A stretch of DNA of 64,000 nt from Naegleria gruberi (lineage: Eukaryota). The DNA lies in the NCBI GenBank assembly GCA_000004985.1, contig GG738851.1. One strand, 5' to 3'. Positions 13,704 through 59,499 of the stretch are shown here, in pieces (position 1 is the stretch's first letter; every line of letters starts with the position of its first letter). Position numbers and translations under genes: made by a program. The notes below the pieces were generated by a model. That model worked only from the letters and a program-made list of their open reading frames with translations, ran no database searches and was not told where the DNA came from.

Positions 13704-13775
13704 GGGGACCAGTGGGAATCGAACCCACGGCCTCTCGCACCCAAAGCGAGAATCATACCACTAGACCATGGTCCC
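13704..13775 (-). tRNA. tRNA-Pro(TGG), 72 nt, intact.
   Basis: The reverse complement reads GGGACCATGGTCTAGTGGTATGATTCTCGCTTTGGGTGCGAGAGGCCGTGGGTTCGATTCCCACTGGTCCCC. The 7-bp acceptor stem, the T-arm GTGGG/CCCAC and the anticodon stem are all perfect. The anticodon loop is TTTGGGT. A T-run follows, consistent with a Pol III terminator. Confidence 0.9.
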
Positions 13776-16467: not shown

Positions 16468-16495
16468 ATAGGGCAAAATATTTCAATTCCGATCA
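16468..16495 (+). repeat. Left terminal inverted repeat of the pogo-like element.
   Basis: The sequence was compared directly with the reverse complement of 18538-18565. Confidence 0.8.
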
Positions 16496-16691
16496 CCCTC
16501 GATTTTCGATCATCTTGAACAATTTTAATAGTAAACTTTCAAAGTTTTTATAATGTATATGTAGTAGTGTGGGTCTTCTCTACCCGTATCGTTTGTTTGT
16601 TTTGGTGAATAAATTGTTTTGCAATAAAATTACCAAAGTTTACAACCATGTTTAATATGAAAAAAATATAATTCCGATCACCTTCATCATC

Positions 16692-18474: not shown

Positions 18475-18537
18475 CTTCCCAATGACTTTTCAAATAAATC
18501 AACAATTTATTGCTGCACCAGTGATCGGAATTTGAAT

Positions 18538-18565
18538 GTGATCGGAATTAAATTATTTTGCCCTA
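18538..18565 (-). repeat. Right terminal inverted repeat of the pogo-like element.
   Basis: The sequence was compared directly with 16468-16495. Confidence 0.8.
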
Positions 18566-18922
18566 ATAGTTGGAAATTTAAATCCGTAGGTACTTGTATC
18601 CTCTCCAGAACGAAGATACAATTTCATTGGAATTTGTTGATGACGAGTTGAATTTTTGAAAATTTCGGACAATAATTAAAATTGTAATTTTTAAATGTAA
18701 CGGTAAAGATTTTAAAAAAATTAAGAAATTCCATCCTCACTTTATTCATATTATTACATAATGATGAACAAACACTCTAAAAGGTTGCGTTGGGGTATGG
18801 ACATCTTCATTAAAATTGAAGTCCACTCAGTAAGCGAGCACTTTCTCCACTCATCATCATGCTAAGGAATTTAGGCTTCTTGATTGTCATCATTTACAAT
18901 ATCAAAAAAAACACAAGAGAGA

Positions 18923-29771: not shown

Positions 29772-30269
29772 ATAGTTAATATTAAATAGTTAATATCAGT
29801 AAGTAGTATGAGTGGACAATTATTGTTATTGTTTTTGTTTTGAATTTCATCTATTGCGTCCATCATCTCTGTATTTATATCAACTGTGAAAGTGTACGTT
29901 GCGTCCGCCAATAAAGTGTTCAACCATTACAAAAAAGGAAATTATACGAAGCGGTTGTTCAAATGGTGAGTTGATATGGAGAATCATGTAGTAACAAGTG
30001 GCTATTTAAACCATGATTCTTTGAAAATGGGCGAGTATGTTACAAAAGATTCTCAAATTGATTGAATTAAATATGATTTTCATTGTAATTGGTTCAATTC
30101 AATCATTTTGAGTGGTGTTTTTCAAATTCATGTTTGAGTATGAGGTGATGGGGAAAAGGAATATTGCAATCAATTAATGAATGGTGGGGAAGGGAAAACT
30201 TTACTCAGTATTATGTGCGCCATATTAATGTTTTAACAATGTGTGTGAACAGTGCATGCGGTTATGTTT

Positions 30270-36154: not shown

Positions 36155-38048
36155 ATGAATAAGCCACAAAAGAGAAACAAATTGCAAGAAATTTTAAAAG
36201 CGTGCGAAATACTTCAAGACGACTCGGATAAGATCCAATTGGTGGTCGAATACATCACCAAACAATTAAATATCAATGTGAAGAAAACACAATATCCGTG
36301 GATTGAAAAAGAGGAAACCCTAAAGTTCTTATTTGCTCTAAACATTACACCAAAAGAAACTCATCCACTTCCCATATGTGAATCCACCTTAGATATTCTT
36401 GTGGATTGCTACTACCAATTTATAGATACCGATAGCATCAAAGATTTATCAGAGTCATTCGAAAAGGCAGCAAAGCTCCTTTCCGAGAGTACGAAACAAA
36501 GAGTTCGGGCTCACCACATATTTTCATTAGTATCAAGTTTGCAAAGATTAGATTCAATGCAAAGAAAAGATCTGGGTGAAATAGTCGTTTCCAGTGCCAT
36601 TTCTTCTTTATTGGATGTCATTTGTTGCATTAAGGGCCATGTCCAAAATGGGTAAGTTGGAGTTGATTTTTGATTGTTATTGGAATTTAGTTTTAGTGAT
36701 CAACGAATAGATATACACTTGGATGATAGTGACTTGCCAATCTTTCATGTTCAAAGTGATGGCACTATTTCAACTGATTTTTCAACAATTCCTTATTTGT
36801 TGAGAGAAGATAAAAGTTTTGATAAACCTGAGCACTGGGAAAATGATTTTACCGATGCTTTCAAATTGATATTATCCATGAAAAGCACTTTAAGGTTTGT
36901 TGTTTTTCCTTAGATAGTAAGTTACATTGTTATTCGAAAGAGAACAATTATTTAAAGAAAAAGCAAAGAAGGAGGACAGATTGAAATACAACAAAGTATT
37001 AGGATTGAATTTCCTCAAAAGCAGGGCACATTTATTCTTGTTGGAAGTTGATTTGATTGAGGAAAATCAAGAAATCCTTCCACAATACTTCATTTCTCAT
37101 CGCCCATATTCCGTGGATATAGCCAATCTCATTGCAATGTGGCTCGCAATACTCAGATTTGCCAATGAGTATGCACCAAACAGGCCATTATATGCCAATG
37201 AAAATTATGGACCTATCCAGAGAACACCTTATACTAACTTGTCTCAAATTGAAGAGATAGTTTCCAATAGTTCTAGCTCAAGAGAAACTAAATTGCATAG
37301 TTCAACAATGAAGGTTTGTAAAAAGGTTATCAATTGTCACGAGAGCAAGGAAGAGCAACGATTTACATACAAAGTATTGAGTTCAACATTTTTAAAGAAA
37401 GTTACCAAAGATGAAATGAGCATTATTGTCAAATTGGTTGAGTTGGACAATTTCTCTCCGTATCTTCCAAGAATTCTCAATGTCTATTCGAATATAGTTG
37501 AATTTGAAGAATTAGAATGTTTGCCAAATCTCACCGAAGAGACCCTCATTGATTTAGTGATCGATATTTCTAAAGCTTTACACTTTTTGCATGAAAATCA
37601 AATAATACACAGAGATGTTAAACCTGCTAATATTATGACACGAAATTTTAATCACCACTGCAGAGAACAATATGTTTTAATCGATTTTGGTTTGAGTTTT
37701 TCCTATTCCAAGAAGGATGATCATTACATTGACAACAAAACTGGTAAGATTGTAACTGCCAATCTTGGAACTAGTTATTATAAGGCTCCAGAAGTGAATG
37801 AAGAAAGAAACTATCATGAAAAGATTGATATTTATTCGTTAGGTACTTCAATTATTCATTTATTAATGAATTCACAAAAAGTGCAAGTGACAGCAAACTG
37901 GAAACAAGAAGCTAAAGATTTGATATGGCAATTTTTAGAGTTTCAACAGTTGGTTTTACGAATGGTAGATGTTGATCCTAACAATAGACCAAGTGCTTTG
38001 AAAGTTACCGAATGTATGACAGATATTAGACATAATCTTTCAAATTGA
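36155..38048 (+). CDS. Protein kinase with an N-terminal non-kinase region. Three exons: 36155..36651, 36691..36894 and 36941..38048. Introns 36652-36690 and 36895-36940. The first two ORFs could instead be a separate upstream gene.
   Basis: The C-terminal ORF has HRDVKPANIMT, DFGLS, GTSYYKAPE and DIYSLGTS in kinase subdomains VIb to IX. It lacks a canonical GxGxxG loop. Junctions are GTAAGT…AATTTAG and GTTTGT…CGAAAG, and the phases match. The second donor is weak. Confidence 0.45.
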
Positions 38049-38131
38049 TACAACTCTGTTTCAAGAATTGAAAATGGAACATCACTTCCATCAAGAATGC
38101 ATATATTTGACAAATGTGTCTACCAAGATAT

Positions 38132-39898
38132 TTATTCATTTTGTAAGATAATTCTGGAATTTTCATAGATCCACTTGATCCATTCTTCTCTAACTTCATA
38201 ACTTTCAGTTCTACAACTCAGAACTCTGCCCATAGTTTTGATATGGAAAACAAAACCTTTCTTGTTTTCTTCCTCTTCACGATCAATTTCACATTCTTCA
38301 ATACGAAGGAATCCTTTCAAGGCTCCTCCCTTCTCTTTAGTGAAATAAAAGATGTAATTGTTGAGAAGAATAAAGTATCTCTTCTTCCAATTCTTCTTCA
38401 ATCTACCTCTCTTTTCGACCATACCAACAAATGTTGGTTTGAATTCGGTTGTTAATCTTTCAGCTGTTAATTGACCAAATCTAAATTCAGCAAGTTTAGT
38501 TTCGGCATCTGCAGAGCTCAAAGTCATACCATAGTTAAGATCCTTTCTTGTTTGAATAAGAGTTTCCTTGAGAACTTTGACACGCTTAACCAATTCTTCA
38601 ATCTTTTGACTTGTCTTCTTTCTAATTTCTTCAGCTGTGATATTTTCACTGTTGAGGAAATCTTCAGCACCTAAAACCTTCAAATCATCCTTTCTAGAAT
38701 CATTAACACGTCTGAGTTCTTCTTCCAATTCCTTGATACGATCAGCTTGTTCTTGATTCTTCTTGTCTTTCTCGGAAATGATTTCGTTTTTATCAGCAAT
38801 GATCTTTTCCTTTTCTTGAATGGTGACTTTTTGGTCAGCAATGATCTTTTCCAATTCCTCAATTCTCCTCTTGTATTGCTCAGAGAGATTGTATTGAACG
38901 TAAGCTTGTTTCTTGAGCTTTCTGGCTTCAACCTTGTATTTGTGAACTTTTTGTTCGACAATCTTTTCTTCAATTTCCTTAATATTGACATCTGATAGTT
39001 TTTTAACCAATTCCAAAAAGACCTTCATTTCTGGCTTGTTAATTTCTGGCATATCATCCTTCATCATGATCAAAAAGTTGTCAAGAATTTCTCTTCTCAA
39101 TTGAGTCATCTTTTCTGCATCTTCAGTCAAATCACTTTGCAAACCATTCAAATTGGTAGCATTGAACAAACTACTGACCATGGTCATGATCAATGTATTG
39201 ACACCAGTGTGAATATCTTCAGCTTCAATATGAACCATATTTGGATTCAAACCAAGCTCATTAACGGTAGCAATAATTCTCTTTGATCTTTCTTCCTTAT
39301 CTTCAATGGCCAAAATTTCTTCAATTTGTTCATCGGTGAATTGTTTTTGTGAATCATTTTCCTTTGCTTCATCTTCGTCGTCGTCTTCACCATTAGATGA
39401 AACTCTCTTTCCATTGAATCTATTATTAATATCAACAATGTTCTTAATGAGATAACAGAATGCTTCACCATCTTTCCAATCCTCTGAAAAGTTTACAACA
39501 ACCTTCTTTGATTTGGTTTGTTTCAAATTGTAATTCACAAAACGTGTTAATAATTGTTGAGCTGGTAATTTCATAAAGTCAACTACACTTTCGTGCTCTT
39601 CCTTGAGAGCAATTAATCTGAGAGAATGCATAACATTCAAACGTTTGGTGACATCTTGTCTAATAAGTTGCCATAATAAAGCCAATAATGGTTGTGGTGA
39701 TTTTTCTGCCAATTCACTTGGACCAATTCCAACAATTTGACAACCAACAGATCCAGATAGATCAATAACTATTGCTTGATTTTCAATCTTTTGGAATTTT
39801 GAAATTTCGTCCAAAGGTGCAATAATACTTCTCTTATTAACCTTATTCCAGTCAATCAAACCACTTTGAATCTTTTCAATCAAGTGCCTAATCATCAT
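38132..39898 (-). CDS. Protein with a calponin-homology-like domain, a coiled coil and a C-terminal PH domain, about 588 aa.
   Basis: The N-terminal region has …PLLALLWQLIRQDV…. The centre has long heptad-rich K/E segments. The C-terminus GMVEKRGRLKKNWKKRYFILLNNYIFYF…REEWIKWI is PH-like. The first ATG is at 39898; the track's start at 39907 is TTG. Confidence 0.5.
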   Translation of the reverse strand: MMIRHLIEKIQSGLIDWNKVNKRSIIAPLDEISKFQKIENQAIVIDLSGSVGCQIVGIGPSELAEKSPQPLLALLWQLIRQDVTKRLNVMHSLRLIALKEEHESVVDFMKLPAQQLLTRFVNYNLKQTKSKKVVVNFSEDWKDGEAFCYLIKNIVDINNRFNGKRVSSNGEDDDEDEAKENDSQKQFTDEQIEEILAIEDKEERSKRIIATVNELGLNPNMVHIEAEDIHTGVNTLIMTMVSSLFNATNLNGLQSDLTEDAEKMTQLRREILDNFLIMMKDDMPEINKPEMKVFLELVKKLSDVNIKEIEEKIVEQKVHKYKVEARKLKKQAYVQYNLSEQYKRRIEELEKIIADQKVTIQEKEKIIADKNEIISEKDKKNQEQADRIKELEEELRRVNDSRKDDLKVLGAEDFLNSENITAEEIRKKTSQKIEELVKRVKVLKETLIQTRKDLNYGMTLSSADAETKLAEFRFGQLTAERLTTEFKPTFVGMVEKRGRLKKNWKKRYFILLNNYIFYFTKEKGGALKGFLRIEECEIDREEEENKKGFVFHIKTMGRVLSCRTESYEVREEWIKWIYENSRIILQNE

Positions 39899-39963
39899 TT
39901 CATTCAATTCATTTCAATTCATTGAAATCCAAGTCAATTAACTTGTCTATTCATCAAAAAAAC

Positions 39964-40413
39964 TTACAAAAACACCAAACCATCTTGCAAACGATCAAAA
40001 ATCTCAACATTTTGTTCCAATTCTTCCGCACCAACCACTTCCAATGGTTTCCAATATTCAATCACAGCCAAATCTCCCAAATTTGCCAAAACATTTCGTT
40101 GTCTTCTACCACCACCACCAGCACCACCACTTCTAGGAGATAAAATTTCACCATTCTCACCATTTCTTTCCTCTGCTTGTTGTTGTAAAGTGCTCGTTAT
40201 GAAATTCCAAGAACCATTTTCAATCATCTTGTTCTTTTCTTCGGTGAATTTTTGAATTGCTTGTGACATGACAGTATTCACGTATCGAATAAAACAACGT
40301 TTCTCTGAACGGGTGATGGTCATGGTGCTACCATGAGCAGTGTGGGATTTAATGACGGATTGTCTTGGACGATGGCCTCCGTTGATTAAATGATTAGGTG
40401 ATCCATTAATCAT
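39964..40413 (-). CDS. Small hypothetical protein of 149 aa with a Gly/Arg-rich segment.
   Basis: ATG-initiated ORF. Its stop lies only 66 nt upstream of the next gene's ATG on the same strand. Confidence 0.35.
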   Translation of the reverse strand: MINGSPNHLINGGHRPRQSVIKSHTAHGSTMTITRSEKRCFIRYVNTVMSQAIQKFTEEKNKMIENGSWNFITSTLQQQAEERNGENGEILSPRSGGAGGGGRRQRNVLANLGDLAVIEYWKPLEVVGAEELEQNVEIFDRLQDGLVFL

Positions 40414-41477
40414 CTATTATTGAGTTTAGTATAGTTTGATGGTTTCGTATAAAATTATATAATAGGTGGAGATGAGGAAATTCATATGAATACATATCGA
40501 GGATCGTGGTCACAACATTGGTTGCAAGACAAGGATTTTCAGGTTCCACAAAATAATTGATGACGAGAATACTATTCGAAAGTGGGTGAAATAGACGAAC
40601 GTACCTTGTTAGGCGATTAAATCTTGTCAATTTTTTTGAAATGTTTGACCGTTCGTAATCGACGTCTTTCACATCTTGACAGGCAACCGATTTGACTCGG
40701 CTTTAGCCATCACAAGCTATTCGAAAGCAGAAACGAAACTCTAATTCAGCAAATTCAACAATTTTTTAATTTCAGTCCATACGGAGTTGTTTTCTTACAT
40801 TTGATATTTATTAGAAATCTTCATATTAATTTCATAGCAATATTCAATTCAAAGGTATTCGAAAGCTTTTTACACAACATTGAATATTGGAAAATCAAGT
40901 TTCGATTACAAGCGAGTCATTAAATAGTGTACTATTCATCTTTGGTAATAAGCATGATAGGAGTAACTGCGAGCATTCACTGTAGTTTACACACTTTACA
41001 AAAATACTATTATGGATTTGTGAGGAGGCTGAATGCAACATGCAACAAGCTACTAGAAGTGAGGAAGAACTTGATAAATTATTGAAACCTTCTTAAAGTT
41101 ATGTTACTTACTTCAGTGAACAAATTTAATTGAAAAGCTATCCTATAGAAAGCACACATTCTGTGACTTCATTCAACATTGTGGACGATCGTTGAAATGT
41201 TACGGCCTTAACCATGTCCAATGCAACAACAGTCTTGTTTTTTAACAATATGTGTGTGTAATGAATTCGATGATGTTTATTGGTGTGGTGTAAATTTCTC
41301 TTTCACACTGTGTGAATTGTAATTTAAGCGGTTTGATCCACGTTCAGTTTTGGTAATTGTGGACAATAAAAGACAAATATCTAGATATCTTGCCTTAATT
41401 AGAACTACCAAGCAAGAATTTTTGTTTTTGTTAAAAAATTATTTTTTGACATTTAGCTTTGTGGCAAGATGCAAAAA

Positions 41478-41890
41478 TTAAGGGTTACTTGCAAAATAAT
41501 ATCCAAAAACCAATTTGAAAGTAGAATAATCTCCCTTTTTAAGGCCCATCATACAATTCTTATACATTTTTCCTCTTTCTTCTGGTGAATTTTGCAAGAA
41601 TGAAATTAAAACTTGAAAAGTATCAGCATTAAAATCTTTCAAAACTTTTTCTCCTTCCTCTGATATCAACAATTTCTCCTCATTTTCTTCAAATAACATC
41701 TCAATAGGAGAAGTTTGATATTGTTGAATGAAATTGTCGAGATCCCTGCAGAAATAAGAAGAATAATTGATAAAATGTTGAGCAAGATACAGTTGGTTCT
41801 GATTATTTGGATCGATTGCTAAACCTAAGAAATGATGAAACTCAAGAAGTGTTGAGCAGTGAAGGAAAACATTTTGTGATTTTTGTGTCA
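41478..41890 (-). CDS. Hypothetical protein, about 137 aa from the first ATG.
   Basis: The ORF in the track starts at a TTG. The first ATG (MTQKSQNVFLHC…) is at 41890. Confidence 0.3.
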
Positions 41891-42229
41891 TTTGTTTTTT
41901 TTTCTTTAGAATTGAGTGGATTGTAGGCTGATTAGTTAAATAATAGAGGTCATTCCACAATATATTTATTAATAGAAGAGGGCTTGGAAAAAAAATTTGG
42001 TGTTTATTGAAGGGTCCATTTCAATTAACGGGACAAAAAAAATTGTTTTTATTTTTGGAAAGCTTAAAAGTTCAATAAAAAAATGATGATCAATCGGAGG
42101 CTAACATCTTCATAAATACAATGAATTAATGAATGAAAATTGGACCATACAGAGAAATATACGTCTGCTATCTACTATAAAAACTGGAACATTTTTAAAA
42201 AGAAAATAGTGTCTAAAAATTATGATTTG

Positions 42230-42684
42230 ATGCGTCGACCGGGAATTGAAATTTCCTTTTTTGGAACTCATTTAACTTTTAATTTTATGATGAAATTATG
42301 AATGTTTTATTTTATTATTATTCATGATGTGAAACATCATGTTGAATTCTGTTCATTATTTTTAATTCATGATGTGAAACATCATGTTGAATTATTAACA
42401 AATGTTGTTCTTCAATTTTTCATTGAATGTTGGAAATATTGGAAAGTTGGAAATAAAAGTTGGAAGTTAGGTAACGGGTTATGGAATTACCTAATGTGAA
42501 ATACATTGTAACAGAATTAACAAGAATAAAAGCAAAATCCTACATAGAGTTGGAGAACGGGAAATGAAATTCCCAAATTGAAATTGAGAAACAACTATTC
42601 ATTTCACAATAATTCATACTATCAAAATGAATTGAACCCGGGTCACGGCGATGGCAACGCCGTATTCTACCACTAAACCATCGA
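42230..42684 (-). pseudogene. tRNA-Gly(GCC) gene split in its T-loop by a 378-bp insertion. The 5' part is 42684..42629 and the 3' part is 42250..42230.
   Basis: The 5' fragment reads GCGTCGATGGTTTAGTGGTAGAATACGGCGTTGCCATCGCCGTGACCCGGGTTCAATTC and the 3' fragment reads TTCAATTCCCGGTCGACGCA plus T5. Joined they make a perfect 71-nt cloverleaf with acceptor GCGTCGA/TCGACGC, T-stem CCGGG/CCCGG and anticodon GCC. TTCAATTC is present at both junctions. Confidence 0.8.
42251..42628 (-). mobile_element. 378-bp non-coding MITE-like insertion inside tRNA-Gly, flanked by an 8-bp direct duplication, TTCAATTC.
   Basis: It contains two perfect 29-nt direct repeats (ATTCATGATGTGAAACATCATGTTGAATT at about 42316 and 42365), each an imperfect palindrome. 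It also has a (GTTGGAA)n microrepeat at 42425-42465, an 8-bp inverted repeat TTAGGTAA…TTACCTAA at 42467-42494, and an A-rich end. There is no ORF and no clear TIR. Confidence 0.6.
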
Positions 42685-42878
42685 CGCTTCTTATTAGTCT
42701 ATCAAATATTATAATAATAGATAGTGTGATTTAATAAACTGTCATCAATGAAGTGTGAACAAATGAATGGAGCGCCACATTACCAAAAAAAAATATCAAC
42801 CCTAAACGGTTTATCGTTTCAACATGTAGCCAAATTTTTCAAGAACAAAAAGCAATAATTTATCACCAACAAGAATAC

Positions 42879-44076
42879 TTGAGAATGATAAATCAAGTTA
42901 ATAGTAATAATGAAAATAACTCTTCTGATGATCACAAAAAGCCAAGAAAAACCAAGTTTCAAGAAATTCTAGAAGCACCGAAAGGATGTACAGAATACAA
43001 TCCTCATCAATCTTTTGCTTTGCAAGTATATTGGATTGTACGTTCCCCACGCTGCTTCTGAGATGATACAACATGGCTTTACTCCATGCGCATCGGCTAC
43101 ATCAAGGGATACACCAACAACAATAACCTACTTGTTCAGAGTTTCCAAAGATCAGAGATTAGCCGAACAGATGAAACAAGAGGTTCTCTCTATTGGACAA
43201 CACCCACACTATCAACCATCCTTTAAAAGTTTATCGATGGGAGTGCCACAGACAAGTGTAGAATTAAAATTGAGACATGGTGGTATTGATACAAAACCAC
43301 TCTCATGGGCACAAGATGAATCTATTGAAGCACATAGAGAAGAATTGGATTTTGATCCTGTTGTGTTGGAGTGCACTGAAATTTACTTGGACAATAGAAG
43401 TTTTTATGAACATGGAGCTTCTCGTGAGTGGATGACTTTCTCTGCTGAAATTCTAAAGCCAGCCAGATCATTAAAGCCAAAGACTTATTGTGTTGGTACT
43501 CCTTCTCAAGAAATTTGGGAGAAAACTCTCGAATCCTATTTAAAGGCAATTCGAATGGATGATGAAACTGTTGGAAAGGATATTAATCCTGGTCTATTTG
43601 TGCTACCTGAAAACTTTGTGGAGAATGTTGATTCAACTAGGTTTTTCCTAGAGTTGGATTTACAAGTAGAAAGAGACTGTATTGAAGTTGTTCGTCCATT
43701 ACTTGGTCAACTACAAAAAGATCTCAAAGCATCCTATATGATTATTCTTCCAATCAATATGGATAATGATAAGCCAACTGTTATTGAATTAAGAATCATG
43801 CTCTCATTTTCTCATTCCTCCAATATCGACCCATCTCAACTAAAAGCAATTTCCAACCAATGCAAGAATTTAGATGGAAGATTAATTGTTTTTGGAACTA
43901 GTGAAGAGGAAGATATCAACAAGGCCAATCATTTCGTAGAATTGACCTCTATCACTGATTCAAAACTTTCCATTCTTCACTCCAAACAAGCTGAAAACTC
44001 TATTCTTGCAGGCTATCCTCTTCATCCATTGATTAATACTTTGACTCAGAATGATCAATTACAATATCAAGTGTAA
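42879..44076 (+). CDS. Hypothetical protein of about 385 aa. Either two exons (42879..43025 and 43063..44076, intron 43026-43062) or a single exon starting at ATG 43063.
   Basis: A GTATAT…TCTGAG 37-nt intron joins the 60-aa ORF in phase to the 353-aa ORF. Alternatively the upstream ORF is a uORF. Confidence 0.35.
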
Positions 44077-44134
44077 TTCAATAAATTAATTTTTCACTAA
44101 GGCGGGAAATTGAAAAAAGTAAACGTTAAAAAAA

Positions 44135-45682
44135 ATGTCCCAATCTTCATCTTCACTCTTTCCCAAGAAGAATTCAACACCTTCTTCGTCCTCTCTGACG
44201 CCTCGATCCTTTAGTAAGCAACAGCAACAACAAAAGGAACCAACAACTCCATCCCGAATACAAAAAGATGGTGGATTCTCCTATCAAACACCAAATAATA
44301 ATGTAAATAATTCAAACAAATCTTTGGATGAGGAAATTGAATACTTTTCATCACCAGAGACTAGTATTGATATGGCTCCTAGTCCGATCAAGAATGATTA
44401 TCGGAAAGATCCAGAATATTCTCCATCATTATTTACCAAATATCCTTCACCAACACCTGTACAAAATTTTGATTTGGATTGTAATAATATTGATAATAAT
44501 CATAATAATAATTTGATGACATCAAAAAGAAAGGAAGAGGAGATTTATGATAATTTATTCGATGATGATGAAGAAAAACCAATTTTAAAATCTAACAGTT
44601 CATCAGCACCATCACTAATTCAATCAAGTACATCATCTTTGAATCGACAAACAGAACAATCATTTATACAAGAAACATTTCCATCAACTCCTAAACGATC
44701 GTCTCCTTTTCCTAAACGGTCAAATGTTGAAAATTTCTCAACACCTAATGCATCCAAGTTGGAGAAGAAATCTTCCTCGAGGAGAAGTCTTGAATCCTTA
44801 ATGGATACATCCACAATGGATTTGGAACAATACGAGCAATTTAATGTAGATAATATTATAATACCAATTCGAGAATCAACATCTAAACAATTATCAAGTT
44901 TGAGGAATGATACAAATGGAAATTTGGAAACTCCAGCTGTAACTAAAGTTGAGAAGAGACATCAGGAATTATTTCATCATTATCTAGAGGAAAAAGGGGA
45001 TTTGAGGAATGCAATGCTATTACTGAATCAATTCCATATGAAACAACACAAAATGAATGTTTTGAATTTTAAACTTAATTCGATCAACTTGGTAGCTAAC
45101 TTTGCCAATGCTGTGAATTCACAAAAACTTCAACTAGAACTCCATAAGAGTAAAAAGGTTGTGGCTAATTTAAATGGAAAAGTGGAATATCTCAATGATA
45201 CTGTAGAGGGTTTAAATCAGGAAGTTGAACAACACAAATCTTCTCTCTCCTCTTTCATGCAAAAATATTACAAAACGGTGGAAGAGCTCCAACAAAATCA
45301 ACTAGTTCAGAGGATGCAACTAGATGATATAATGAAGTTGAAGAGCAGAGAGGGAGTCACTGTAGACCTACTCATCCTTTTTGCAATGAGTTATTTGGTA
45401 CGAAAAAGTAGAATATTCCACAGATTTTTAAAGTTTATTTTCATGTTTCTTCCTTTCAATGGAATAGTCATTATCATTTCGAAAATTCTGGCAACGATTG
45501 GTTTAATGTTGTTATCGAGGAAAGCTGCCATTAAAGTAGGTGTTCATGCTGGGGCAACGAGTGTAGCATATGGACTCATCCAAACTCTACAATTTTCATT
45601 CAATACTGTAAAATCAATTTTCCAATTGTTGAAAATTGTTCCATCCTTAAAACCCCAAAATGATGATGAGAAGAATAAATAG
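44135..45682 (+). CDS. S/N-rich protein with a coiled coil and C-terminal transmembrane helices, 515 aa.
   Basis: Single ORF with a low-complexity N-terminus. Hydrophobic helices lie near the C-terminus (…VDLLILFAMSYLV…, …IVIIISKILATIGLMLL…). Confidence 0.45.
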   Translation: MSQSSSSLFPKKNSTPSSSSLTPRSFSKQQQQQKEPTTPSRIQKDGGFSYQTPNNNVNNSNKSLDEEIEYFSSPETSIDMAPSPIKNDYRKDPEYSPSLFTKYPSPTPVQNFDLDCNNIDNNHNNNLMTSKRKEEEIYDNLFDDDEEKPILKSNSSSAPSLIQSSTSSLNRQTEQSFIQETFPSTPKRSSPFPKRSNVENFSTPNASKLEKKSSSRRSLESLMDTSTMDLEQYEQFNVDNIIIPIRESTSKQLSSLRNDTNGNLETPAVTKVEKRHQELFHHYLEEKGDLRNAMLLLNQFHMKQHKMNVLNFKLNSINLVANFANAVNSQKLQLELHKSKKVVANLNGKVEYLNDTVEGLNQEVEQHKSSLSSFMQKYYKTVEELQQNQLVQRMQLDDIMKLKSREGVTVDLLILFAMSYLVRKSRIFHRFLKFIFMFLPFNGIVIIISKILATIGLMLLSRKAAIKVGVHAGATSVAYGLIQTLQFSFNTVKSIFQLLKIVPSLKPQNDDEKNK

Positions 45683-45686
45683 TTTA

Positions 45687-46607
45687 TTATTTCTTTGAAA
45701 TGTCGAGCATGAATTTGAAAATCGCAATTGGTGGAATATATTGGGTGACACCCAAAATTTCAAATCCAAGTTTCTGGTACAGTCTTCTAGCACCATATTG
45801 AAGTGAGCTAGTCTTGAGAATGATTCTATTCATTTGTAATTCTTGAGCATACTTGAAGACATATCTCAATAGAACAGTAGCCACACCTCCACCACGATAT
45901 GAGCTCTTTACACTCATTCTTCTAATTTCAATCATTTTCAATGGATTGATTTGATACTTTTCATATTCTTCAATGAATTCAGCATCTTCAACCTTATCAC
46001 CTGGATAAATCCACTTATCGAGAGCAACATGACCAACAATTTCATCACCATCCATAGCCAAAAAGAAATTATTCTCTGGTTTGCTCTTATTATTTGCATA
46101 ATAATTATTGATATCTCCCAACTCGTTTGATTTTCTATTCTTCATAATGTACTTTCCCATATCCTTAGCAATAATTGGCAATAGCACAAATTTAAAAACA
46201 GCATACAACATTCCACTCAATAACACCAAAAATCCAACATAAACCATCAGTTTCAATCTTGTCACTTCCACAACTTCAACACCCAACAATTTTCCAATCA
46301 AAAACCACGAAATATAAAACGTAGACCAAATGAAAAATTGCAACTTGTATCCATAATATTCCTGAAACAAGGCCACCAATGAAGTACTTCCATTTCCTTG
46401 ATCCACACCAAACAATAGACCAACAATCTTTCCATAATCATTGAACAAATCTTTCGGAACACCATCCATCATTCCGTTCGTAAAAATGTCGTGTACTTGA
46501 TTTTGTATTTCCGAACGTATCTTTTCCTCATCACCACCATCATGATTGAGCCTTCGCTGGACCAACTCATTGAACGATAAAACTTCGAGTTTGTTGTTTT
46601 GTTTCAT
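45687..46607 (-). CDS. Membrane-anchored GNAT N-acetyltransferase (NAT8/camello-like), 306 aa.
   Basis: Two or three N-terminal TM helices are followed by a GNAT core (…IVGHVAL…IRRMSVKSSYRGGGVATVLLRYVFKYAQ…LYQKLGFE). Confidence 0.55.
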   Translation of the reverse strand: MKQNNKLEVLSFNELVQRRLNHDGGDEEKIRSEIQNQVHDIFTNGMMDGVPKDLFNDYGKIVGLLFGVDQGNGSTSLVALFQEYYGYKLQFFIWSTFYISWFLIGKLLGVEVVEVTRLKLMVYVGFLVLLSGMLYAVFKFVLLPIIAKDMGKYIMKNRKSNELGDINNYYANNKSKPENNFFLAMDGDEIVGHVALDKWIYPGDKVEDAEFIEEYEKYQINPLKMIEIRRMSVKSSYRGGGVATVLLRYVFKYAQELQMNRIILKTSSLQYGARRLYQKLGFEILGVTQYIPPIAIFKFMLDISKK

Positions 46608-47176
46608 TTTTTTGTGTTACTTTTAAAAACTTTGTCATCTTTACAAGCAAACCAACAAACTTGAGGTTTTATCGTTGAAAATATCAGACAGATATATCTA
46701 TTGAATAACATTGAATTTCCATAGTTGAAATTTTCACACGAATTGGTAAAAGGAAAAAGACTACAGCACCACAGGTTCCCAAGTTGTCTCCAACCTCAGT
46801 ACTGATGTGGCTCGACGATGCTTAACTTCTCAAATCGGACGGGATGAGGTGCATTCATCGTGATATGGCCGTAGCCATTCATGGTATGAAATCATTCCTT
46901 ATTAATTGAAATACTTTCTTTATGTGTGAAATATACATATGTTTTTCTTTTCAAGACCGGACTTGAAAATTAGGTAATGAGCCTTGAATATCCAATTTAT
47001 GAATCAGACCGTGTATACCTCCTATTGAACATGTTGAATCGAAACGTTGTATGTAGGAAAGTAATTAAGCTAATTTATAGAGCTAAAAGAAATTCCAATC
47101 CGATCATACTTTTTTCCGAAACCACTATCCCAAATCATATTAGAGTTGAAGAACCTTTCAGAGCTTTGTCAAAGGG

Positions 47177-49248
47177 TTAATATTTTTTCTCATTGGAATG
47201 GAGTATGGCATTGGTACTGCCATTAGATTGCATCTTTGAGTTTGGAATAAATCTTCCTTCTCTAGTTTTTAAACTATTTGGAAGCATCATGAATAATTCT
47301 CTTTTTTCCTTGATACCCTGAAGTGAATGATATCCATAGGAATTAAGAAAGAGTTTTCCACATTCTTCCTCGATATTTGAATTATTTTCCAACATGTCAT
47401 ATAGTTCCTTACTAATAAACGTGGATCCTCCCAATGCAATATCTGCTATTCTCGCAGCTAAATTCACTCCAGGTCCAAAGTAATCTGTTCTTTTTGTAGT
47501 TGGATCAAGTTGTGCAGAGTATTCACCTTCACTCAAGAAATGTAATCCCATTCTAACTCTAAAACCATTGAATATTATTTGACCATCGTCGTCCACTGTT
47601 TCTACATTTGTTGGGAATGATAATAGTGATGGAGGCCAATCTTCTTTCATCATACGTGTATGTATCAAATTTACACATTTGACAGCATCTACAACTGATC
47701 CAAAAGCAACCATAAAGGAATCACCTTCTGTTTTAACTTCATATCCATTAAATGCTGTAAGAAGCGACCTCACAATTTCATGATGCCTCTTTATACAATG
47801 ATCCATATCCTCTTTTGGGACATGCTCCCATATTTTGGTTGAGTTTTGAATGTCTGAAAACATTATCAAAATGGGTTTACCAGAAGGTCCTTCTTCAATA
47901 TAACTCATAATCTTGTGCAATTCCCTGTGTTTTCTCACGTAATAACATCTCACACCACCAACCAATGCCAACGTAAAACACAAAGACAATGCAACAGAAC
48001 CCACAGCAATCATTGCATATCCAAACTGTTCCAAATGTGGTAAAGAACTCAGAGTGAGTGTCCCACAGGATATCTGGTTAACAATGCTGTTAACCAAGTG
48101 CTCCTTATATGAGTTTGGAATGGGGGCAAAATAATTAGTCTCAAATATCAGGTCAGATGTTGATGGAGTTGAAATTGTATAAATCCATGATAGAAAGTTG
48201 AATATGAATTTCTTCTTATCGCAACTTGAAAGGGTTTTTCTAAAAAGAAAATAGCTCACACCTGCACAAGGATAGCTTTCTGCGTCTCCATCAACAATTT
48301 CCACAAAATAATTGTCAACAGTTAGAAAATTCTGAGCAGCAGCTTTGAATGAGCTAATGCTTGGAGCTACAGGATTTCCTGCCTTATTAAGTATTTTCGC
48401 AACTGGAATTGACATGAAAGCTGCATCAGCAGGGCTGCCATATCCAATAGAATACTCCAATTTAATAACACTTTCAGTTACAGCAAGACTTGTTAAAACT
48501 GAAACAAAATTGGTACTTGTTATATTCGGAAACATTGTAACTTTACCATATTTCCATAAGGTAGGACTGAAATGTGACAGAGAAGAAGTAAATATACTTG
48601 TAGAACCTGAAGATGTAGATCTTACTATAGGCTGAATAGGATGATTTGGTAATGTTTCACTATTGGTCTGCTGTATTCTGTTGTCATTCCAATACTGAAT
48701 TTCACCAGAGAATATACCAGCAACAGCACTTCTACTCAATATAAGTTGTGACTTAAAGTTGGGAATATTGTACAACAAAGCTACCCCAGAAATAAAGAGA
48801 GGAACCATTTCCAAGTTTTGATCTTCTAGTTCGGTTTTTGTTAAAGAGGTTTCAGAAACTGCAAAATCATAATCTCCTTGTTTTAGTTTGTTAAGCCCTT
48901 CACCAGATCCTAACAGAGTTAACAATCAATAGTTCAAACAAACTTACCCACACTGTCATATAATATTGAGTAAATGGGACTATCTTGAATACTATTGAAT
49001 AACGAAAGCAAAGAATTCATTACTTGCTTTGCGAGAGAACTTCCTCCTCCTCCGACTATTAAACTTGGGATATCATCATTATGATTTTCATTATTTACAG
49101 TAGTGTACAATAGTGATAGTGTTGGGGTTTTGGAACATAAATATACAAATAATAGGGGAATGAGTATAGTGGTCATCAATAGTGCAAGAGTAATAAGTAT
49201 TATTGGTCTCAGTGTGTGAGAATCAGATTCTTTGTGAAATCCTAGCAT
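47177..49248 (-). CDS. Receptor-type class III adenylate/guanylate cyclase, about 677 aa. Layout: N-terminal TM anchor, extracellular PstS-like phosphate-binding (PBP) domain, a TM helix, then the cyclase catalytic domain. Two exons: 49248..48948 and 48909..47177. Intron 48910-48947.
   Basis: The catalytic domain reads ILIMFSDIQNSTKIWEH…VKTEGDSFMVAF…FRVRMGLHFLSEGEY…GPGVNLAARI. The ectodomain matches PstS motifs: GSGEGLNKLKQGDYDFAVSETSL…EMVPLFISGVALLYNIP…SAVAGIFSGEIQYWND…LPNHPIQPIVRSTSSGSTSIFTSSL…IGYGS. Donor G|GTAAGT, acceptor TGTTAG|GA, and the phase matches. The first exon encodes the TM segment ILITLALLMTTILIPLLFVYL. Confidence 0.7.
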
Positions 49249-53052: not shown

Positions 53053-55323
53053 ATGGGAATTCAAGGACTGTTGCCACTTTTTAAAAACCATTGCAAAAAG
53101 GGCCACGTTTCCGAATTAAAAGGACAAAAAGTTGCCATTGATGCCTATGTTTGGTTGCACAGAGGAGCCTACAGTTGTAGTGCAGAATTGTGTCAAAACA
53201 AACCAACAGATAAATATTTGGGTTATTGTATGCATATGGTGAATATGTTAAAACATAACAAGGTGATACCTGTACTTGTTTTTGATGGAGCTAGACTTCC
53301 TTCAAAAGCAGACACTGAAAGTGATAGAAGATCTAGAAGAAAAGAAGCTCTAGAACAAGCACAAATTCACTTACAAAATCACAGATACGAGCAAGCTAAC
53401 GAATGTTTTAGAAAGGCTGTTGATATCAAACCTTCAATGGCATATCAGTTAATATCACAATGTAAAAAAGAGGGTGTGGAAATAGTAGTAGCTCCGTATG
53501 AGGCTGATGCACAATTGGCTCATTTGGCTAGAACTGGGTATGTCTCATGTGTGATCACAGAGGATAGTGATCTGATACCTTATGGAGCTCCAAAAATATT
53601 TTTCAAAATGGATAAATACGGCCATGGAACATTACTCAATCTTGCCGATATCAATCATACACCAACAGCGAATGGAAGTACGGATTTTTCAAAATTTACT
53701 CACGATATGATGATGAGGATGTGTATTCTTTCAGGATGTGATTATTTGAGCTCGCTTTCTGGAATTGGACCGAAAACAGCCTACAAGATCATTAAGGAAA
53801 ACAGGACAGTTCCTAAAATTATGGAGGCATTGAGAAAATTGGGAAAGTTCAAGAGGCAAGAGAATACTCAGCCAAGTAGTCAAGAGATATCATCCTCTCC
53901 TTCGCTTTCCTTACCTCAACCCAGCTCAAGTCAAGATATTTCCGTTTCTGAAGAAGAGTATAGAGAAGCATTTGTTAGAGCCGAGTTGACATTTAAACAT
54001 CAACGAGTATTTGACATCCTTTCACAGGAAATGAGATGTTTAACAGATCCGCCTTCCTGTCTTACGGAAGAGGATATTTACTTTTGTGGACCAACAAAAC
54101 CAACAGATATAGTAGTTCAGATATGCACAGGTATGATAGATCCCATGTCTCACAAACCATTCGTTTCTGCTCCGTCATACGCCTCGAAAAGCTCTGTAAG
54201 TTTTAATAGTTTTTCATATCTTACCTGTATATTAGAATTTAACACCACTAAAAACAAACACAATTCAAACCTATTTCAGTAAGTAGTATGGCTGTAGACA
54301 TTTTCTAAAACTGTAACAGCACCAGTAGCGACAACTCCAAAACAAAAATTCATTCCACCACCTTTTAAAGTTCCATTCAAAACACCATCTCAAGAAACTC
54401 CTTCAAAATCACAAGAAACTCCAACATCTTCATCTACTCCAACAACAGCTAAAAAGATTACAAGCAAGTTTTTCACACCCAAAGAAGCATCAAGTTCTCA
54501 AAGTTCTTCTTCGACGCCTGTTAAACCAGGAAGTTTGACAGTAATAATTCCTTCTCAGGAAGAAAACTCAAAAGAAGCTACTGGCAGTGCAAGCAAAAAA
54601 TCATTGTTTAGTGCTTTGTTCACCAGTTTATCCCAGGAGGTGTCAAACTCACAAGAGGTATCGAATGGATTTTCTACAACCATATTTTCAGACGATCTTA
54701 CTACTGCCCTGATTAGAAATGAGAAGAAACAACAGGCAATGAAGAAAGTGGAAGAGGAGGAAGACATTGATTTGGATGATTTTGAATTGGATCCTCCTTC
54801 TCCTGTTTTATTGAAAACACCTTCCAGATCGGCTGAACCTTTAATTGAACAGACGGCATCATCATCAAATTCCAGCATCAAAAGGCCACTTTCTGCATCA
54901 ATATTATCTTCATCATCCACCAAGAAAGCTAGCCCTCCTCTAACCTTGACAACTTCTGCATCAGAAAGTTCATTAAAGAGAAAAAGCTCCTTCTTAGATA
55001 GATTCAAAAAGACACCAAGTAGTTCACAGAAAGAAAGTTCTCAAGGCACTCCATACCTTAGCTCTTCTCAAAATTCAAGCTCTTCTTCTGAACCTGCCCG
55101 ATCAACAATACCTTCTGCAGATGCATTCATGTATGATTTGTCGTCTGACGATGAATTGGAGCCAGTTCCAAAGAAAACCAAACAATCGACCTCTGTTGCT
55201 GCAGTCGTTGAAATTATATCGAGTGAGGATGAGAATGAGGAGGAATCAAGAACTGTTAGTCCTCAAGAGGAAAAGAATGTTTTTGAACTCTTTCTGTCGT
55301 ATGAATCAAAAAAATTTCAATAA
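53053..55323 (+). CDS. EXO1: Exonuclease 1 (XPG/RAD2 family), about 723 aa. Two exons: 53053..54195 and 54298..55323. Intron 54196-54297.
   Basis: The N-terminus MGIQGLLPLFK…VAIDAYVWLHRGA…VLVFDGARLPSK…VVAPYEADAQLAHLA…VITEDSDLIPYG…CILSGCDYLSSLSGIGPKTAYK matches the XPG-N/XPG-I domains and EXO1 closely. Donor TCT|GTAAGT and acceptor GCTGTAG|ACA are both phase 0. The second exon encodes an S/T/P-rich disordered tail. Confidence 0.85.
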
Positions 55324-55336
55324 TAAACTAATTTAT

Positions 55337-58207: not shown

Positions 58208-58602
58208 CTTGATTAGTTTCGTCTAGTTTCGTAAATACGAAATTATTTTGGTCTACTAGATGAGAATAATATTATAAAAAATTTAGAAGGCTTTTTGATG
58301 ATGTGCCTTCCGTAATTTGTTGTAGGTGCGTTTTTTTTGTGGTAGAAAACCAAGGACTTGACATTTGACGGGTGGTTATAATTTTTCAAAAGCAAAACCT
58401 TAAAAATATAATCCCAGACCTCCAAGTTGCAATGTGTTCAAATAATTGAAATCAAAATATCCCGTCGAAACAGTTCCAAAGAAAAGTTACTTGGTTTTTA
58501 TTAAGAATTCTACCTTAACAGTACTTTAGTCCAATTTCTAATATTGGAAGATATTTAAAGATATTTTGATAGTATCTGTTGTAAAATATTGGAAATTATT
58601 GT

Positions 58603-59499
58603 TCAATCAATGATGGGTCTTTCTCTAAATGATCCTTTAAAGTTTCTAATAAATAATTTATCAAATCGATAATCACTTTTAACAATTCCAATAAATCCCC
58701 TTTTAGAAATCGTAACTGGTGCCATAATTCCATTCAATGATACTCCATTAATAAGAATATCCAAACTATTCTCTGATATAAAATTAAATTCAATATGATT
58801 CCACATTCCAAAAGTAATTGGAGAATAGTCTCTGTAATAATACGATTCATTTTCTTTTGTTTGCTGAAGTAGAGTGCCAGTCATGTCAGATTCACCTGAA
58901 ATTCTAAAAACTAAACTATCATCTTCATCCTTATTTTCTGAAAATGCAATTCTAATTTCTGAATCACCAGTTTCCAAAAAGAAATCTAACGAAACTTGAA
59001 AATTACTATAATTATCAAGATTATACAATTCTCTATTGGACCACAATGTTTCTCTCATATTAAAATTCAATACTCCACCCTCTTGCATCTCATGTTTCGT
59101 TCCCTCCACATTAAATACTTGCACCAATTTTTTACAATACATTTTCCAATCATTAATTTTCAAATTATTTCCTTCATCTCCATTTACCATTTCCGAAACC
59201 ACAACATTATTACATTCATTGTTAGCCTCACTATCATCATCTTCATTTCTGCACCACGATGGAAGCAGAAGGGAATTTAATTGTTTTTTTTTCTTTCCGT
59301 AAATATTAAATTGGCGCTCACAAATTTGGCGCCAAATCAATTCCGAATGATCACTTCCCGTAGAGTTGATCATTTTGAAAAAAAATTGACTCGATTGGCT
59401 TAGGAGGTGAACATCTCGAAGGGAGAGGAAGGAAATTACGTGATGAGAGAGGAGTGGAAGATTTTCCTCTGTGAATAATTGTGTGAATAGTTGTGCCAT
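58603..59499 (-). CDS. F-box protein of 298 aa with an unassigned beta-rich C-terminal domain.
   Basis: The N-terminus LPLLSHHVISFLSLRDVHLLSQSSQFFFKMI…IWRQICERQF has an F-box pattern. Confidence 0.5.
   Translation of the reverse strand: MAQLFTQLFTEENLPLLSHHVISFLSLRDVHLLSQSSQFFFKMINSTGSDHSELIWRQICERQFNIYGKKKKQLNSLLLPSWCRNEDDDSEANNECNNVVVSEMVNGDEGNNLKINDWKMYCKKLVQVFNVEGTKHEMQEGGVLNFNMRETLWSNRELYNLDNYSNFQVSLDFFLETGDSEIRIAFSENKDEDDSLVFRISGESDMTGTLLQQTKENESYYYRDYSPITFGMWNHIEFNFISENSLDILINGVSLNGIMAPVTISKRGFIGIVKSDYRFDKLFIRNFKGSFRERPIID

What the first reader, a model, noticed from the sequence alone, without database searches (positions are those of the whole stretch)
42251..42628. Structured non-coding insert (MITE-like) with twin palindromic 29-mers, a GTTGGAA microrepeat and an 8-bp inverted repeat
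The insert has no ORF. It carries two perfect copies of ATTCATGATGTGAAACATCATGTTGAATT about 48 bp apart, each able to form a hairpin of about 10 bp. It also has four or more tandem GTTGGAA(A) units, the palindrome TTAGGTAA-N12-TTACCTAA, and an A-rich end toward 42290. There is no obvious TIR. An 8-bp TSD is typical of the hAT and P superfamilies, whose TIRs can be very short. This looks like a novel non-autonomous element family, or another kind of structured insertion.
Basis: seen in the sequence. Interest (0 to 1): 0.5.

Follow-up and report, generated by a model that had tools for sequence, protein, structure and literature searches.

The report
Short mobile insert splitting a tRNA-Gly gene
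A 378-base non-coding piece of DNA has inserted, with a clean 8-base duplication, into the T-loop of a glycine tRNA gene in a Naegleria-like amoeba genome and broken that gene copy; it is most likely an ordinary small transposable element whose family could not be identified.

Summary
Positions 42251-42628 are a 378-bp, 25% GC insert flanked by a perfect 8-bp direct repeat, GAATTGAA. It contains the reported twin 29-mers, the TTGGAA microrepeat and the 8-bp/N12 palindrome. The finding text does not say that the insert sits inside a minus-strand tRNA-Gly(GCC) gene. The duplicated 8 bp are the T-loop plus one base, which is the core of the B box. Removing the insert and one repeat copy restores a perfect 71-nt tRNA. 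That tRNA is identical to an intact copy on a metagenome contig. The window comes from a Naegleria gruberi-like heterolobosean. This is therefore a genuine insertion, and it probably inactivates one copy of what is probably a multicopy tRNA gene. No register of the ends gives more than a 4-bp terminal inverted repeat. The termini do not look hAT-like, and there is no Pol III head, ribozyme, intron signature or coding remnant. No second copy turned up, but the searchable collections hold almost no DNA from this organism, so copy number is untested. My best reading is a non-autonomous mobile element of unresolved class, leaning towards a DNA transposon that makes 8-bp staggered cuts. A retroposon fragment is the close rival. 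Interest is modest unless genome-wide copies show targeting of tRNA T-loops.

The parts
42629..42687 (-). 5' fragment (nt 1-59) of a tRNA-Gly(GCC) gene: acceptor 5' strand, D arm, anticodon arm, variable loop, 5' T-stem strand and T-loop. The A box is intact and the B box survives as GGTTCAATTCa.
   Evidence: ARAGORN and Rfam see only a damaged tRNA here (21.2 bits against a gathering score of 29). Joined to 42231-42242 it gives a perfect cloverleaf.
42629..42636 (.). Target-site duplication, right copy: GAATTGAA, which is TTCAATTC on the tRNA strand (the 7-nt T-loop plus the first base of the 3' T-stem strand).
42251..42628 (.). The 378-bp insert. It is 25.4% GC, has no homologous ORF, no Rfam match and at most a 4-bp terminal inverted repeat (ATTT...AAAT).
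42243..42250 (.). Target-site duplication, left copy: GAATTGAA.
42231..42250 (-). 3' fragment (nt 52-71) of the same tRNA-Gly gene: T-loop copy, 3' T-stem strand, acceptor 3' strand and discriminator A. The gene's original T5 terminator lies at 42215-42219.
42320..42348 (+). Palindromic 29-mer, copy 1 (hairpin CATGATGT-GAA-ACATCATG).
42365..42393 (+). Palindromic 29-mer, copy 2, identical to copy 1. The sequences following the two copies are unrelated. A degenerate third copy of the right half lies at 42494-42523 (70% identity).
42429..42466 (+). Microrepeat of (G/A)TTGGAA, four units at spacings of 8-13 bp, all on the + strand.
42467..42494 (.). Hairpin/palindrome TTAGGTAA-N12-TTACCTAA.
42555..42574 (+). 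T-arm-like hairpin GAACGGGAAATGAAATTCCC (stem GGGAA/TTCCC). It matches the left junction (42237-42256, GACCGGGAATTGAAATTTCC) at 17 of 20 positions. Its significance is unclear.
   Evidence: D3. 0 of 200 shuffles and 0.13% of native control windows reach 17/20. The hairpin is -3.2 kcal/mol.
42624..42627 (-). A T4 run on the tRNA-sense strand, 2-5 nt past the 5' junction. It is a probable Pol III stop that would truncate any transcript started from the surviving A and B boxes.
   Evidence: The tRNA-Pro and 5S genes in the window are followed only by T4 runs.
42251..42290 (-). Terminal region that is A-rich on the tRNA-sense strand (...CCAAAAAAGGAAAT-3'). It is the only feature that could be a retroposon tail.
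   Evidence: read directly from the sequence

Best explanation
A short, non-coding, non-autonomous mobile element integrated once into a tRNA-Gly(GCC) gene of a Naegleria gruberi-like genome. The target was cut with an 8-bp stagger that brackets the T-loop, and gap repair duplicated TTCAATTC.

Shown: the 71-nt gene is now split into a 59-nt 5' piece and a 20-nt 3' piece, 378 bp apart.

Inferred:
- The 5' piece keeps its A box and 10 of 11 B-box bases, so it may still recruit Pol III. The transcript would lack the 3' T-stem and acceptor strand and would meet a T4 stop 2-5 nt into the insert. This gene copy is therefore dead.
- The loss is tolerated because tRNA-Gly genes are normally multicopy.
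- As to class, I lean towards a DNA element mobilised in trans by a dimeric DDE-type transposase that makes 8-bp staggered cuts, as hAT and P transposases do. The duplication sits almost symmetrically on the palindromic T-arm (CCGGG-TTCAATT-CCCGG). The twin palindromic 29-mers and the TTGGAA repeats would then be protein-binding sites.

Confidence in 'mobile-element insertion that killed a tRNA gene copy' is about 0.8. Confidence in the DNA-transposon subclass specifically is about 0.35. The confidence field below gives the subclass figure.
For: - Excising 42251-42636 restores a perfect 71-nt tRNA-Gly(GCC) cloverleaf. It is 71/71 identical to an intact gene on the independent metagenome contig L007.
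- The 8-bp direct repeat is perfect and rare by chance.
- The insert has no relative for its only ORF and no Rfam match.
- Its internal repeats far exceed chance.
- The duplication spans tRNA positions 54-61, between the two T-stem strands, so the target is palindromic. PMC3706591 states that P and hAT elements generate ~8-bp duplications and prefer a 14-bp target motif that contains the duplication.
- T4 runs are the only T-runs after the window's tRNA-Pro and 5S genes, and a T4 lies just inside the insert.
- The genome does carry active-looking DNA transposons: a pogo-like element with clear TIRs lies at about 16.47-18.57 kb.
Against: - Only one copy has been seen. Multiple copies are the defining evidence for mobility and are missing.
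- No terminal inverted repeat longer than 4 bp exists in any duplication register.
- The termini ATTTCC/CAAAAT are unlike hAT ends.
- The repeated motifs lie centrally, not subterminally.
- No candidate autonomous partner with an 8-bp duplication is present in the window.
- One end is A-rich on the tRNA-sense strand, which fits a retroposon equally well.
Confidence: 0.35

Rival explanations
1. The insert is a SINE-like or 5'-truncated non-LTR retroposon copy in the same orientation as the tRNA. An endonuclease nicked the T-loop region, the A-rich 3' end (...CCAAAAAAGGAAAT) was reverse-transcribed from the nick, and second-strand cleavage 8 bp away produced the duplication.
For: There are no terminal inverted repeats. 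The sense-strand 3' terminal 39 nt are 56% A and end in AAAAAAGGAAAT. Variable-length duplications that include 8 bp are normal for target-primed reverse transcription (general knowledge). There is no coding capacity.
Against: - There is no true poly(A) or simple-repeat tail.
- No tRNA-, 5S- or 7SL-like Pol III head appears anywhere in the insert, even at E up to 10.
- T4 and T6 runs lie within the first 5-15 nt in either orientation, so Pol III could not transcribe it as a SINE.
- No reverse-transcriptase gene is present in the window.
- The near-symmetrical placement of the duplication on a palindrome is not expected for this mechanism.
Confidence: 0.28
2. The insert belongs to a target-specific, TIR-less DNA transposon family that homes to tRNA T-arms, behaving like Dada. 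Its internal T-arm-like hairpin (42555-42574) mimics the target. The same protein would recognise both the element and the tRNA gene, so insertions would land harmlessly in multicopy genes.
For: - Dada elements insert inside tRNA, snRNA and 5S genes, lack TIRs and carry short repeats that also occur in the target gene (PMC3706591; PMC8869645).
- Here the site is inside a tRNA gene, there are no TIRs, and an interior 20-mer matches the flank + duplication + terminus junction at 17/20 (P about 0.001 against native controls).
Against: - There is only one insertion, so specificity cannot be inferred.
- Dada duplications are 6-7 bp and GC-rich (GCGAAA, TAGCTC, TGGCGG and the like). Here the duplication is 8 bp and AT-rich.
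- The intact tRNA on its own matches the interior no better than chance (13/20).
- Neither Dada paper read mentions Naegleria (0 occurrences in PMC3706591; the three-term searches, did not list either).
- All other tRNA genes seen in Naegleria-like loci are intact.
Confidence: 0.1
3. The insert is not a transposon. An unrelated AT-rich DNA fragment (organellar, extrachromosomal or intergenic) was captured during repair of a staggered double-strand break in the tRNA gene.
For: Only a single copy is known. The composition (25% GC) resembles the flanking intergenic DNA (27-29%). There are no TIRs, tail or coding remnant.
Against: Perfect 8-bp duplications are the signature of enzyme-made staggered cuts and are not typical of end-joining capture (general knowledge). 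The dense, highly non-random internal repeat architecture is not seen elsewhere in the 64-kb window. No part of the insert matches anything else in the window.
Confidence: 0.1
4. The insert is a giant non-canonical tRNA intron in the T-loop, removed from the RNA by the splicing endonuclease through a bulge-helix-bulge motif, so the gene remains functional.
For: A bulge-helix-bulge-like arrangement can be drawn by hand: the T-stem (5 bp), a UUC bulge, AAUU/AAUU (4 bp), a UUC bulge, then AUUUU/GAAAU. Any cut within the repeated 8 nt would give the mature sequence. Both tRNA halves are mutation-free.
Against: - The drawn motif follows automatically from the duplication and the AATT palindrome in the T-loop, and it needs an extra bulged C.
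- It is not the minimum-free-energy fold of a junction mini-substrate.
- Four T4 runs lie on the sense strand, the first at intron nt 2-5, and T4 appears to be this organism's Pol III terminator.
- At 378 nt it is several-fold longer than any known endonuclease-spliced tRNA intron (my own knowledge).
- Rfam finds no group I or group II intron.
Confidence: 0.02

Closest known systems
hAT- and P-superfamily non-autonomous elements (MITEs with 8-bp target-site duplications)
   Same: 8-bp duplication; small non-coding element; a palindromic target with the duplication near its centre; internal short repeats that could bind a transposase.
   Different: No terminal inverted repeats beyond 4 bp. The termini are not hAT-like. 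The repeats are central rather than subterminal. No partner or second copy is known.
Dada DNA transposons (Kojima and Jurka 2013, PMC3706591; PMC8869645)
   Same: Insertion inside a small multicopy Pol III gene (tRNA); absence of TIRs; a sequence in the element that resembles the target region.
   Different: Dada duplications are 6-7 bp and GC-rich, and most sites named in the two papers lie in the A box or the anticodon loop. Known Dada elements are 4.7-11 kb and encode a transposase, or are internal deletions of such elements. Here the duplication is 8 bp and AT-rich, the site is the T-loop, and there is a single 378-bp copy with no known parent. Neither Dada paper read mentions Heterolobosea.
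Non-LTR retroposons and SINEs, including the tRNA-gene-associated TRE elements of Dictyostelium (TRE comparison from my own knowledge)
   Same: No TIRs; a flanking duplication of several bp; one A-rich end; association with a tRNA gene.
   Different: TRE-type elements land upstream or downstream of tRNA genes, not inside them. Here there is no poly(A), no Pol III head and no reverse-transcriptase partner in view.
Prokaryotic integrative elements that recombine in the tRNA T-loop (tyrosine integrases; my own knowledge)
   Same: The identity segment coincides with the T-loop and is flanked by the symmetrical T-stem arms.
   Different: Those elements carry a replacement 3' tRNA end, so the gene is restored, and they are kilobases long with an integrase gene. 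Here the gene is broken, and the organism is a eukaryote.

Membership tests
hAT-type MITE | 8-bp target-site duplication | tested here: met
   GAATTGAA at 42243-42250 and 42629-42636, a perfect repeat.
hAT-type MITE | Terminal inverted repeats (typically 10 bp or more, with hAT-type YARNG ends) | tested here: not met
   At most 4 bp of perfect TIR in any register. The termini are ATTTCC / CAAAAT.
hAT-type MITE | Multiple copies in the genome, and an autonomous partner that shares the termini | not testable with these tools
   The source genome is not in any searchable collection. There is no copy in the window or in the related loci.
P superfamily | 7-8-bp duplication within a palindromic target motif | tested here: met
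   The duplication spans tRNA nt 54-61, between the CCGGG and CCCGG stem strands.
P superfamily | Terminal inverted repeats and a THAP/RNase-H transposase partner | tested here: not met
   No TIRs. The only transposase in the window is pogo-type.
Dada | Insertion at a fixed site inside a multicopy small RNA gene, seen in several copies | tested here: inconclusive
   The insert is inside a tRNA-Gly T-loop, but only one insertion is available. The other tRNA genes examined are intact.
Dada | [quoted passage not shown] | tested here: inconclusive
   No TIRs. There is a 17/20 interior match to the junction, but it is a direct repeat 54-73 nt from the opposite end, not the Dada geometry.
Dada | 6-7-bp duplication, usually containing GCG or similar GC-rich cores | tested here: not met
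   The duplication is 8 bp and AT-rich (TTCAATTC). Dada targets as described in PMC3706591 and PMC8869645.
Dada | Encodes, or derives from an element that encodes, a Dada DDE transposase | not testable with these tools
   The insert has no coding remnant. The genome could not be searched.
SINE / non-LTR retroposon | Internal Pol III promoter head (tRNA, 5S or 7SL-derived), for a SINE | tested here: not met
   No such Rfam match inside the insert at E up to 10. T4/T6 runs lie near both ends.
SINE / non-LTR retroposon | 3' poly(A), A-rich or simple-repeat tail abutting the duplication | tested here: inconclusive
   The sense-strand end is ...CCAAAAAAGGAAAT. It is A-rich but not a tail.
LTR retrotransposon solo LTR | 4-6-bp duplication and TG...CA termini | tested here: not met
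   The duplication is 8 bp. No register gives TG...CA ends.
Endonuclease-spliced tRNA intron | Bulge-helix-bulge motif at the exon-intron borders, and transcription through the intron | tested here: not met
   Only a relaxed hand-drawn motif exists, and it is not the minimum-free-energy fold. Four sense-strand T4 runs are present, and T4 is the apparent terminator.
Group I / group II intron, ribozyme-bearing retrozyme | Match to the conserved RNA core | tested here: not met
   The Rfam E-value scan of 42100-42800 found nothing relevant.
Tc1/mariner-pogo MITE (derivative of the resident pogo-like element) | TA duplication and TIRs shared with the transposon at about 16.47-18.57 kb | tested here: not met
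   The duplication is 8 bp. The pogo TIR TAGGGCAAAATA... is absent from the insert ends.

The most novel reading that the evidence does not exclude
The insert is one copy of an undescribed heterolobosean family of TIR-less DNA elements that home specifically to the T-arm/B box of tRNA genes. The family would make an 8-bp duplication of the T-loop and use an internal T-arm-like hairpin and palindromic 29-mers as recognition sites. That would be Dada-like in strategy but distinct in duplication length, target sequence and probably enzyme.
Probability: 0.1. Interest if true: 0.6.

Novelty: new member of a known kind. Interest (0 to 1): 0.3.

Why it matters
As it stands, this is one more small unclassified transposable-element insertion, together with a neatly documented tRNA pseudogene. 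That is useful for annotation. The damaged tRNA should be annotated as a disrupted gene, not as the 72-nt tRNA that ARAGORN reports at 42617-42688. The 65-aa ORF should not be annotated as a gene. It would matter more if genome-wide copies proved to sit repeatedly in tRNA T-loops. Target-specific DNA transposons are rare, with Dada the only superfamily described. A protist family with a different duplication and target would broaden that class and would be of interest for safe-harbour integration.

Tried and rejected
Searches for further copies (all negative):
- blastn with word size 7 of the insert against the window and against eight related loci gave only chance-level hits.
- The 65-aa ORF was searched against 5.8 billion proteins and 1.84 billion cluster representatives. 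The single hit was a spurious repeat protein.
- Exact-pattern scans for the palindrome core, the hairpin, the T-arm-like motif and the junction found nothing in viral contigs, metagenome contigs or genome contigs.
- These negatives are weak. A scan for this organism's tRNA-Gly found only one contig in the whole metagenome collection.
- A literal sequence search of the paper library found nothing.

Attempts to see the site in a sibling strain:
- ENA metagenome ERZ929261 has contigs 98.0-98.6% identical to the window. They cover 36603-40409 (L008), 42670-46863 (L002) and 54463-59203 (L001).
- None reaches the insert.
- Look-ups with flanking and junction ORFs failed.

Orthologous empty site:
- The N. 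fowleri and Willaertia loci carrying the CCDC53-like neighbour gene have tRNA-Asp or tRNA-Ile nearby, not tRNA-Gly. No orthologous comparison is possible.

Readings rejected:
- tRNA intron, solo LTR, SINE and pogo-MITE (see the membership tests).
- The 15/16 and 13/13 matches of the insert termini at 29927-29942 and 58563-58575. They have no extended similarity.
- An 11-mer shared between the left junction and the pogo TIR, which is within chance expectation (my estimate).

Full report
**What is in the sequence.**
Positions 42251-42628 hold a 378-bp, 25.4% GC stretch. It is bounded by a perfect 8-bp direct repeat, GAATTGAA, at 42243-42250 and 42629-42636. Only 3 of 62,000 window positions show 8-bp flank identity at this spacing.

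- Two identical 29-mers, ATTCATGATGTGAAACATCATGTTGAATT, lie at 42320 and 42365. They are 45 bp apart start to start. The sequences following the two copies are unrelated.
- Each 29-mer folds into an 8-bp hairpin of -6.5 kcal/mol.
- Four (G/A)TTGGAA units lie at 42429-42466.
- The hairpin TTAGGTAA-N12-TTACCTAA lies at 42467-42494.

These features are far beyond chance:
- The longest exact repeat in 300 shuffles of the insert was 15 nt.
- The palindrome core is unique in the window even with three mismatches allowed.
- TTGGAA occurs 5 times and TGAAAT 4 times, all on the + strand, with P of about 1e-4 and 1e-3.

The only ORF is 65 aa and has no relative in two very large protein searches.

**The key context: a split tRNA gene.**
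The two flanks are the halves of a minus-strand tRNA-Gly(GCC) gene.
- ARAGORN and Rfam see only a damaged tRNA at 42617-42688 (21 bits against a gathering score of 29).
- Deleting the insert and one repeat copy gives a perfect 71-nt cloverleaf.
- That sequence is 71/71 identical to an intact tRNA-Gly(GCC) on an independent metagenome contig from a related organism (L007 207-277).
- On the tRNA strand the duplicated octamer is TTCAATTC. That is the 7-nt T-loop plus the first base of the 3' T-stem strand, and it forms the core of the Pol III B box.

This is therefore a true insertion into a pre-existing gene. It is not a coincidence of AT-rich sequence.

**Organism.**
- The window is gene-dense eukaryotic DNA of about 34% GC.
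- It encodes a WASH-complex CCDC53-like protein, a protein with calponin-homology (CH) and pleckstrin-homology (PH) domains, a guanylate cyclase and similar proteins.
- The best named homologues are from Naegleria lovaniensis (60%), Willaertia magna (50-53%) and N. fowleri (49%).
- N. gruberi is reported at 35% GC with 5.1% repeats (PMC6125883).
- I infer a N. gruberi-group heterolobosean.
- Contigs from ENA metagenome ERZ929261 are 98.0-98.6% identical to the window, but they stop short of the insert on both sides.

**Class of the insert.**
- *Terminal repeats.* Every possible register of the duplication gives at most 4 bp of perfect terminal inverted repeat, and no TG...CA ends. A classical MITE, a hAT-type end and a solo LTR are therefore all unsupported.
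- *RNA families.* An Rfam scan at E up to 10 finds no tRNA-, 5S- or 7SL-like head, no ribozyme and no group I or II intron in the insert.
- *Pol III transcription.* T4 to T6 runs lie within 5-15 nt of either end, so it is not a Pol III-transcribed SINE.
- *tRNA intron.* A relaxed bulge-helix-bulge can be drawn at the borders. It follows automatically from the duplication and the AATT palindrome in the T-loop, and it is not the minimum-free-energy fold. The sense strand carries four T4 runs, in an organism whose tRNA-Pro and 5S genes are followed only by T4 runs. I reject the intron reading.
- *What remains.* A TIR-less element with an 8-bp duplication. One end is A-rich on the tRNA-sense strand (...CCAAAAAAGGAAAT).

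**Mechanism.**
Shown: the target was opened with an 8-bp stagger and the gap was filled in, duplicating TTCAATTC. The tRNA is split 59 + 20 nt.

Inferred:
- The duplication lies between the two T-stem strands, almost centred on the T-arm palindrome. That geometry is expected for a dimeric DDE transposase of the hAT or P kind. PMC3706591 notes that these make ~8-bp duplications inside a 14-bp target motif.
- This point, together with the dense internal repeats that could be protein-binding sites, makes me lean towards a non-autonomous DNA element (about 0.35).
- A retroposon fragment inserted by target-primed reverse transcription is nearly as likely (about 0.28). It would explain the lack of TIRs and the A-rich end.
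- Either way the gene copy is dead. The 5' piece keeps its A box and 10 of 11 B-box bases, but it lacks the 3' T-stem and acceptor strand, and a T4 follows 2-5 nt past the junction.
- The perfect duplication and the mutation-free tRNA halves suggest that the event is not ancient.

**An unexplained detail.**
The interior 20-mer at 42555-42574 is itself a T-arm-like hairpin. It matches the left junction (3' T-stem + duplication + first 6 nt of the insert) at 17/20. None of 200 shuffles and only 0.13% of native control windows reach this score. The intact tRNA alone matches no better than chance (13/20).

Dada transposons insert into tRNA, snRNA and 5S genes, lack TIRs and carry repeats that mimic the target (PMC3706591, PMC8869645). 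They are the closest known system in behaviour. The resemblance fails on several points:
- The geometry here differs from Dada.
- The duplication is 8 bp and AT-rich, whereas Dada's is 6-7 bp and GC-rich.
- Only one insertion is known.

I treat Dada-like targeting as a lead (about 0.1), not as a classification.

No second copy appears in any of these:
- the window;
- eight related loci;
- the protein databases, queried with the ORF;
- exact-pattern scans of the viral, metagenome and prokaryotic collections.

The metagenome collection holds only one contig with this organism's tRNA-Gly, so these negatives say little. The orthologous loci in N. fowleri and Willaertia carry different tRNAs, so no orthologous empty site is available.

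**Verdict.**
This is a genuine non-coding insertion with an 8-bp duplication, but it is not MITE-like in the strict sense and has not been shown to belong to a family. It is most probably an ordinary small mobile element that inactivated one tRNA gene copy. Novelty is 'new member of a known kind', and interest is about 0.3. Interest would rise to about 0.6 if genome-wide copies show T-loop specificity.

Noticed in passing
window ~16470-18570 (+): A pogo/Tc5-like DNA transposon of about 2.1 kb. Its terminal inverted repeats start TAGGGCAAAATA(T/A)TT(C/T)AATTCCGATCAC. The transposase is split into two overlapping ORFs: 16692-17312 (HTH_Tnp_Tc5) and 17221-18474 (DDE_1). The split may be a frameshift or an intron. 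It is unrelated to the insert.
   Followed up: partly
window 46758-46876 (-) and 13704-13775 (-): A dispersed 5S rRNA gene (105 bits) and a tRNA-Pro(TGG) gene. Both are followed only by T4 runs, which suggests that T4 is enough to terminate Pol III in this organism.
   Followed up: partly
L001, L002, L008 (ENA ERZ929261 / ERR1078381, PRJEB11402): A public metagenome assembly contains contigs 98.0-98.6% identical to window 54463-59203, 42670-46863 and 36603-40409, so a sibling strain or species is present. L002 starts 19 nt into the tRNA-Gly gene and ends inside the 5S gene. The stretch 40410-42669, which holds the insert, was not recovered.
   Followed up: partly
window 42237-42256 vs 42555-42574: The left insertion junction and an interior T-arm-like hairpin match at 17/20. 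None of 200 shuffles and 0.13% of native control windows score this high. The meaning is unknown: target mimicry, an old junction or chance.
   Followed up: partly
window 14758-16413 (-): A 551-aa ORF with a weak hit to the NRPS-type Condensation domain (E = 3.8e-8). This is unusual for an amoeboflagellate genome and could reflect lateral acquisition.
   Followed up: no
window 47177-48925 (-): An ORF that combines a periplasmic-binding-protein-like domain (PBP_like_2) with an adenylate/guanylate cyclase catalytic domain.
   Followed up: no
window ~43010-43050 vs L002 ~355-395: The sibling-strain contig has a 2-nt indel in what looks like a short intron of about 37 nt in the CCDC53-like gene. 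As a result a prokaryote-style gene caller read straight through it, giving P0037 at 444 aa against the 353-aa ORF in the window.
   Followed up: no
L007 47-119 and 207-277: A JGI metagenome contig (Ga0247722_10058881) from a related heterolobosean carries tRNA-Ile(AAT) and an intact tRNA-Gly(GCC) 88 bp apart. The tRNA-Gly is identical to the reconstructed window gene.
   Followed up: yes
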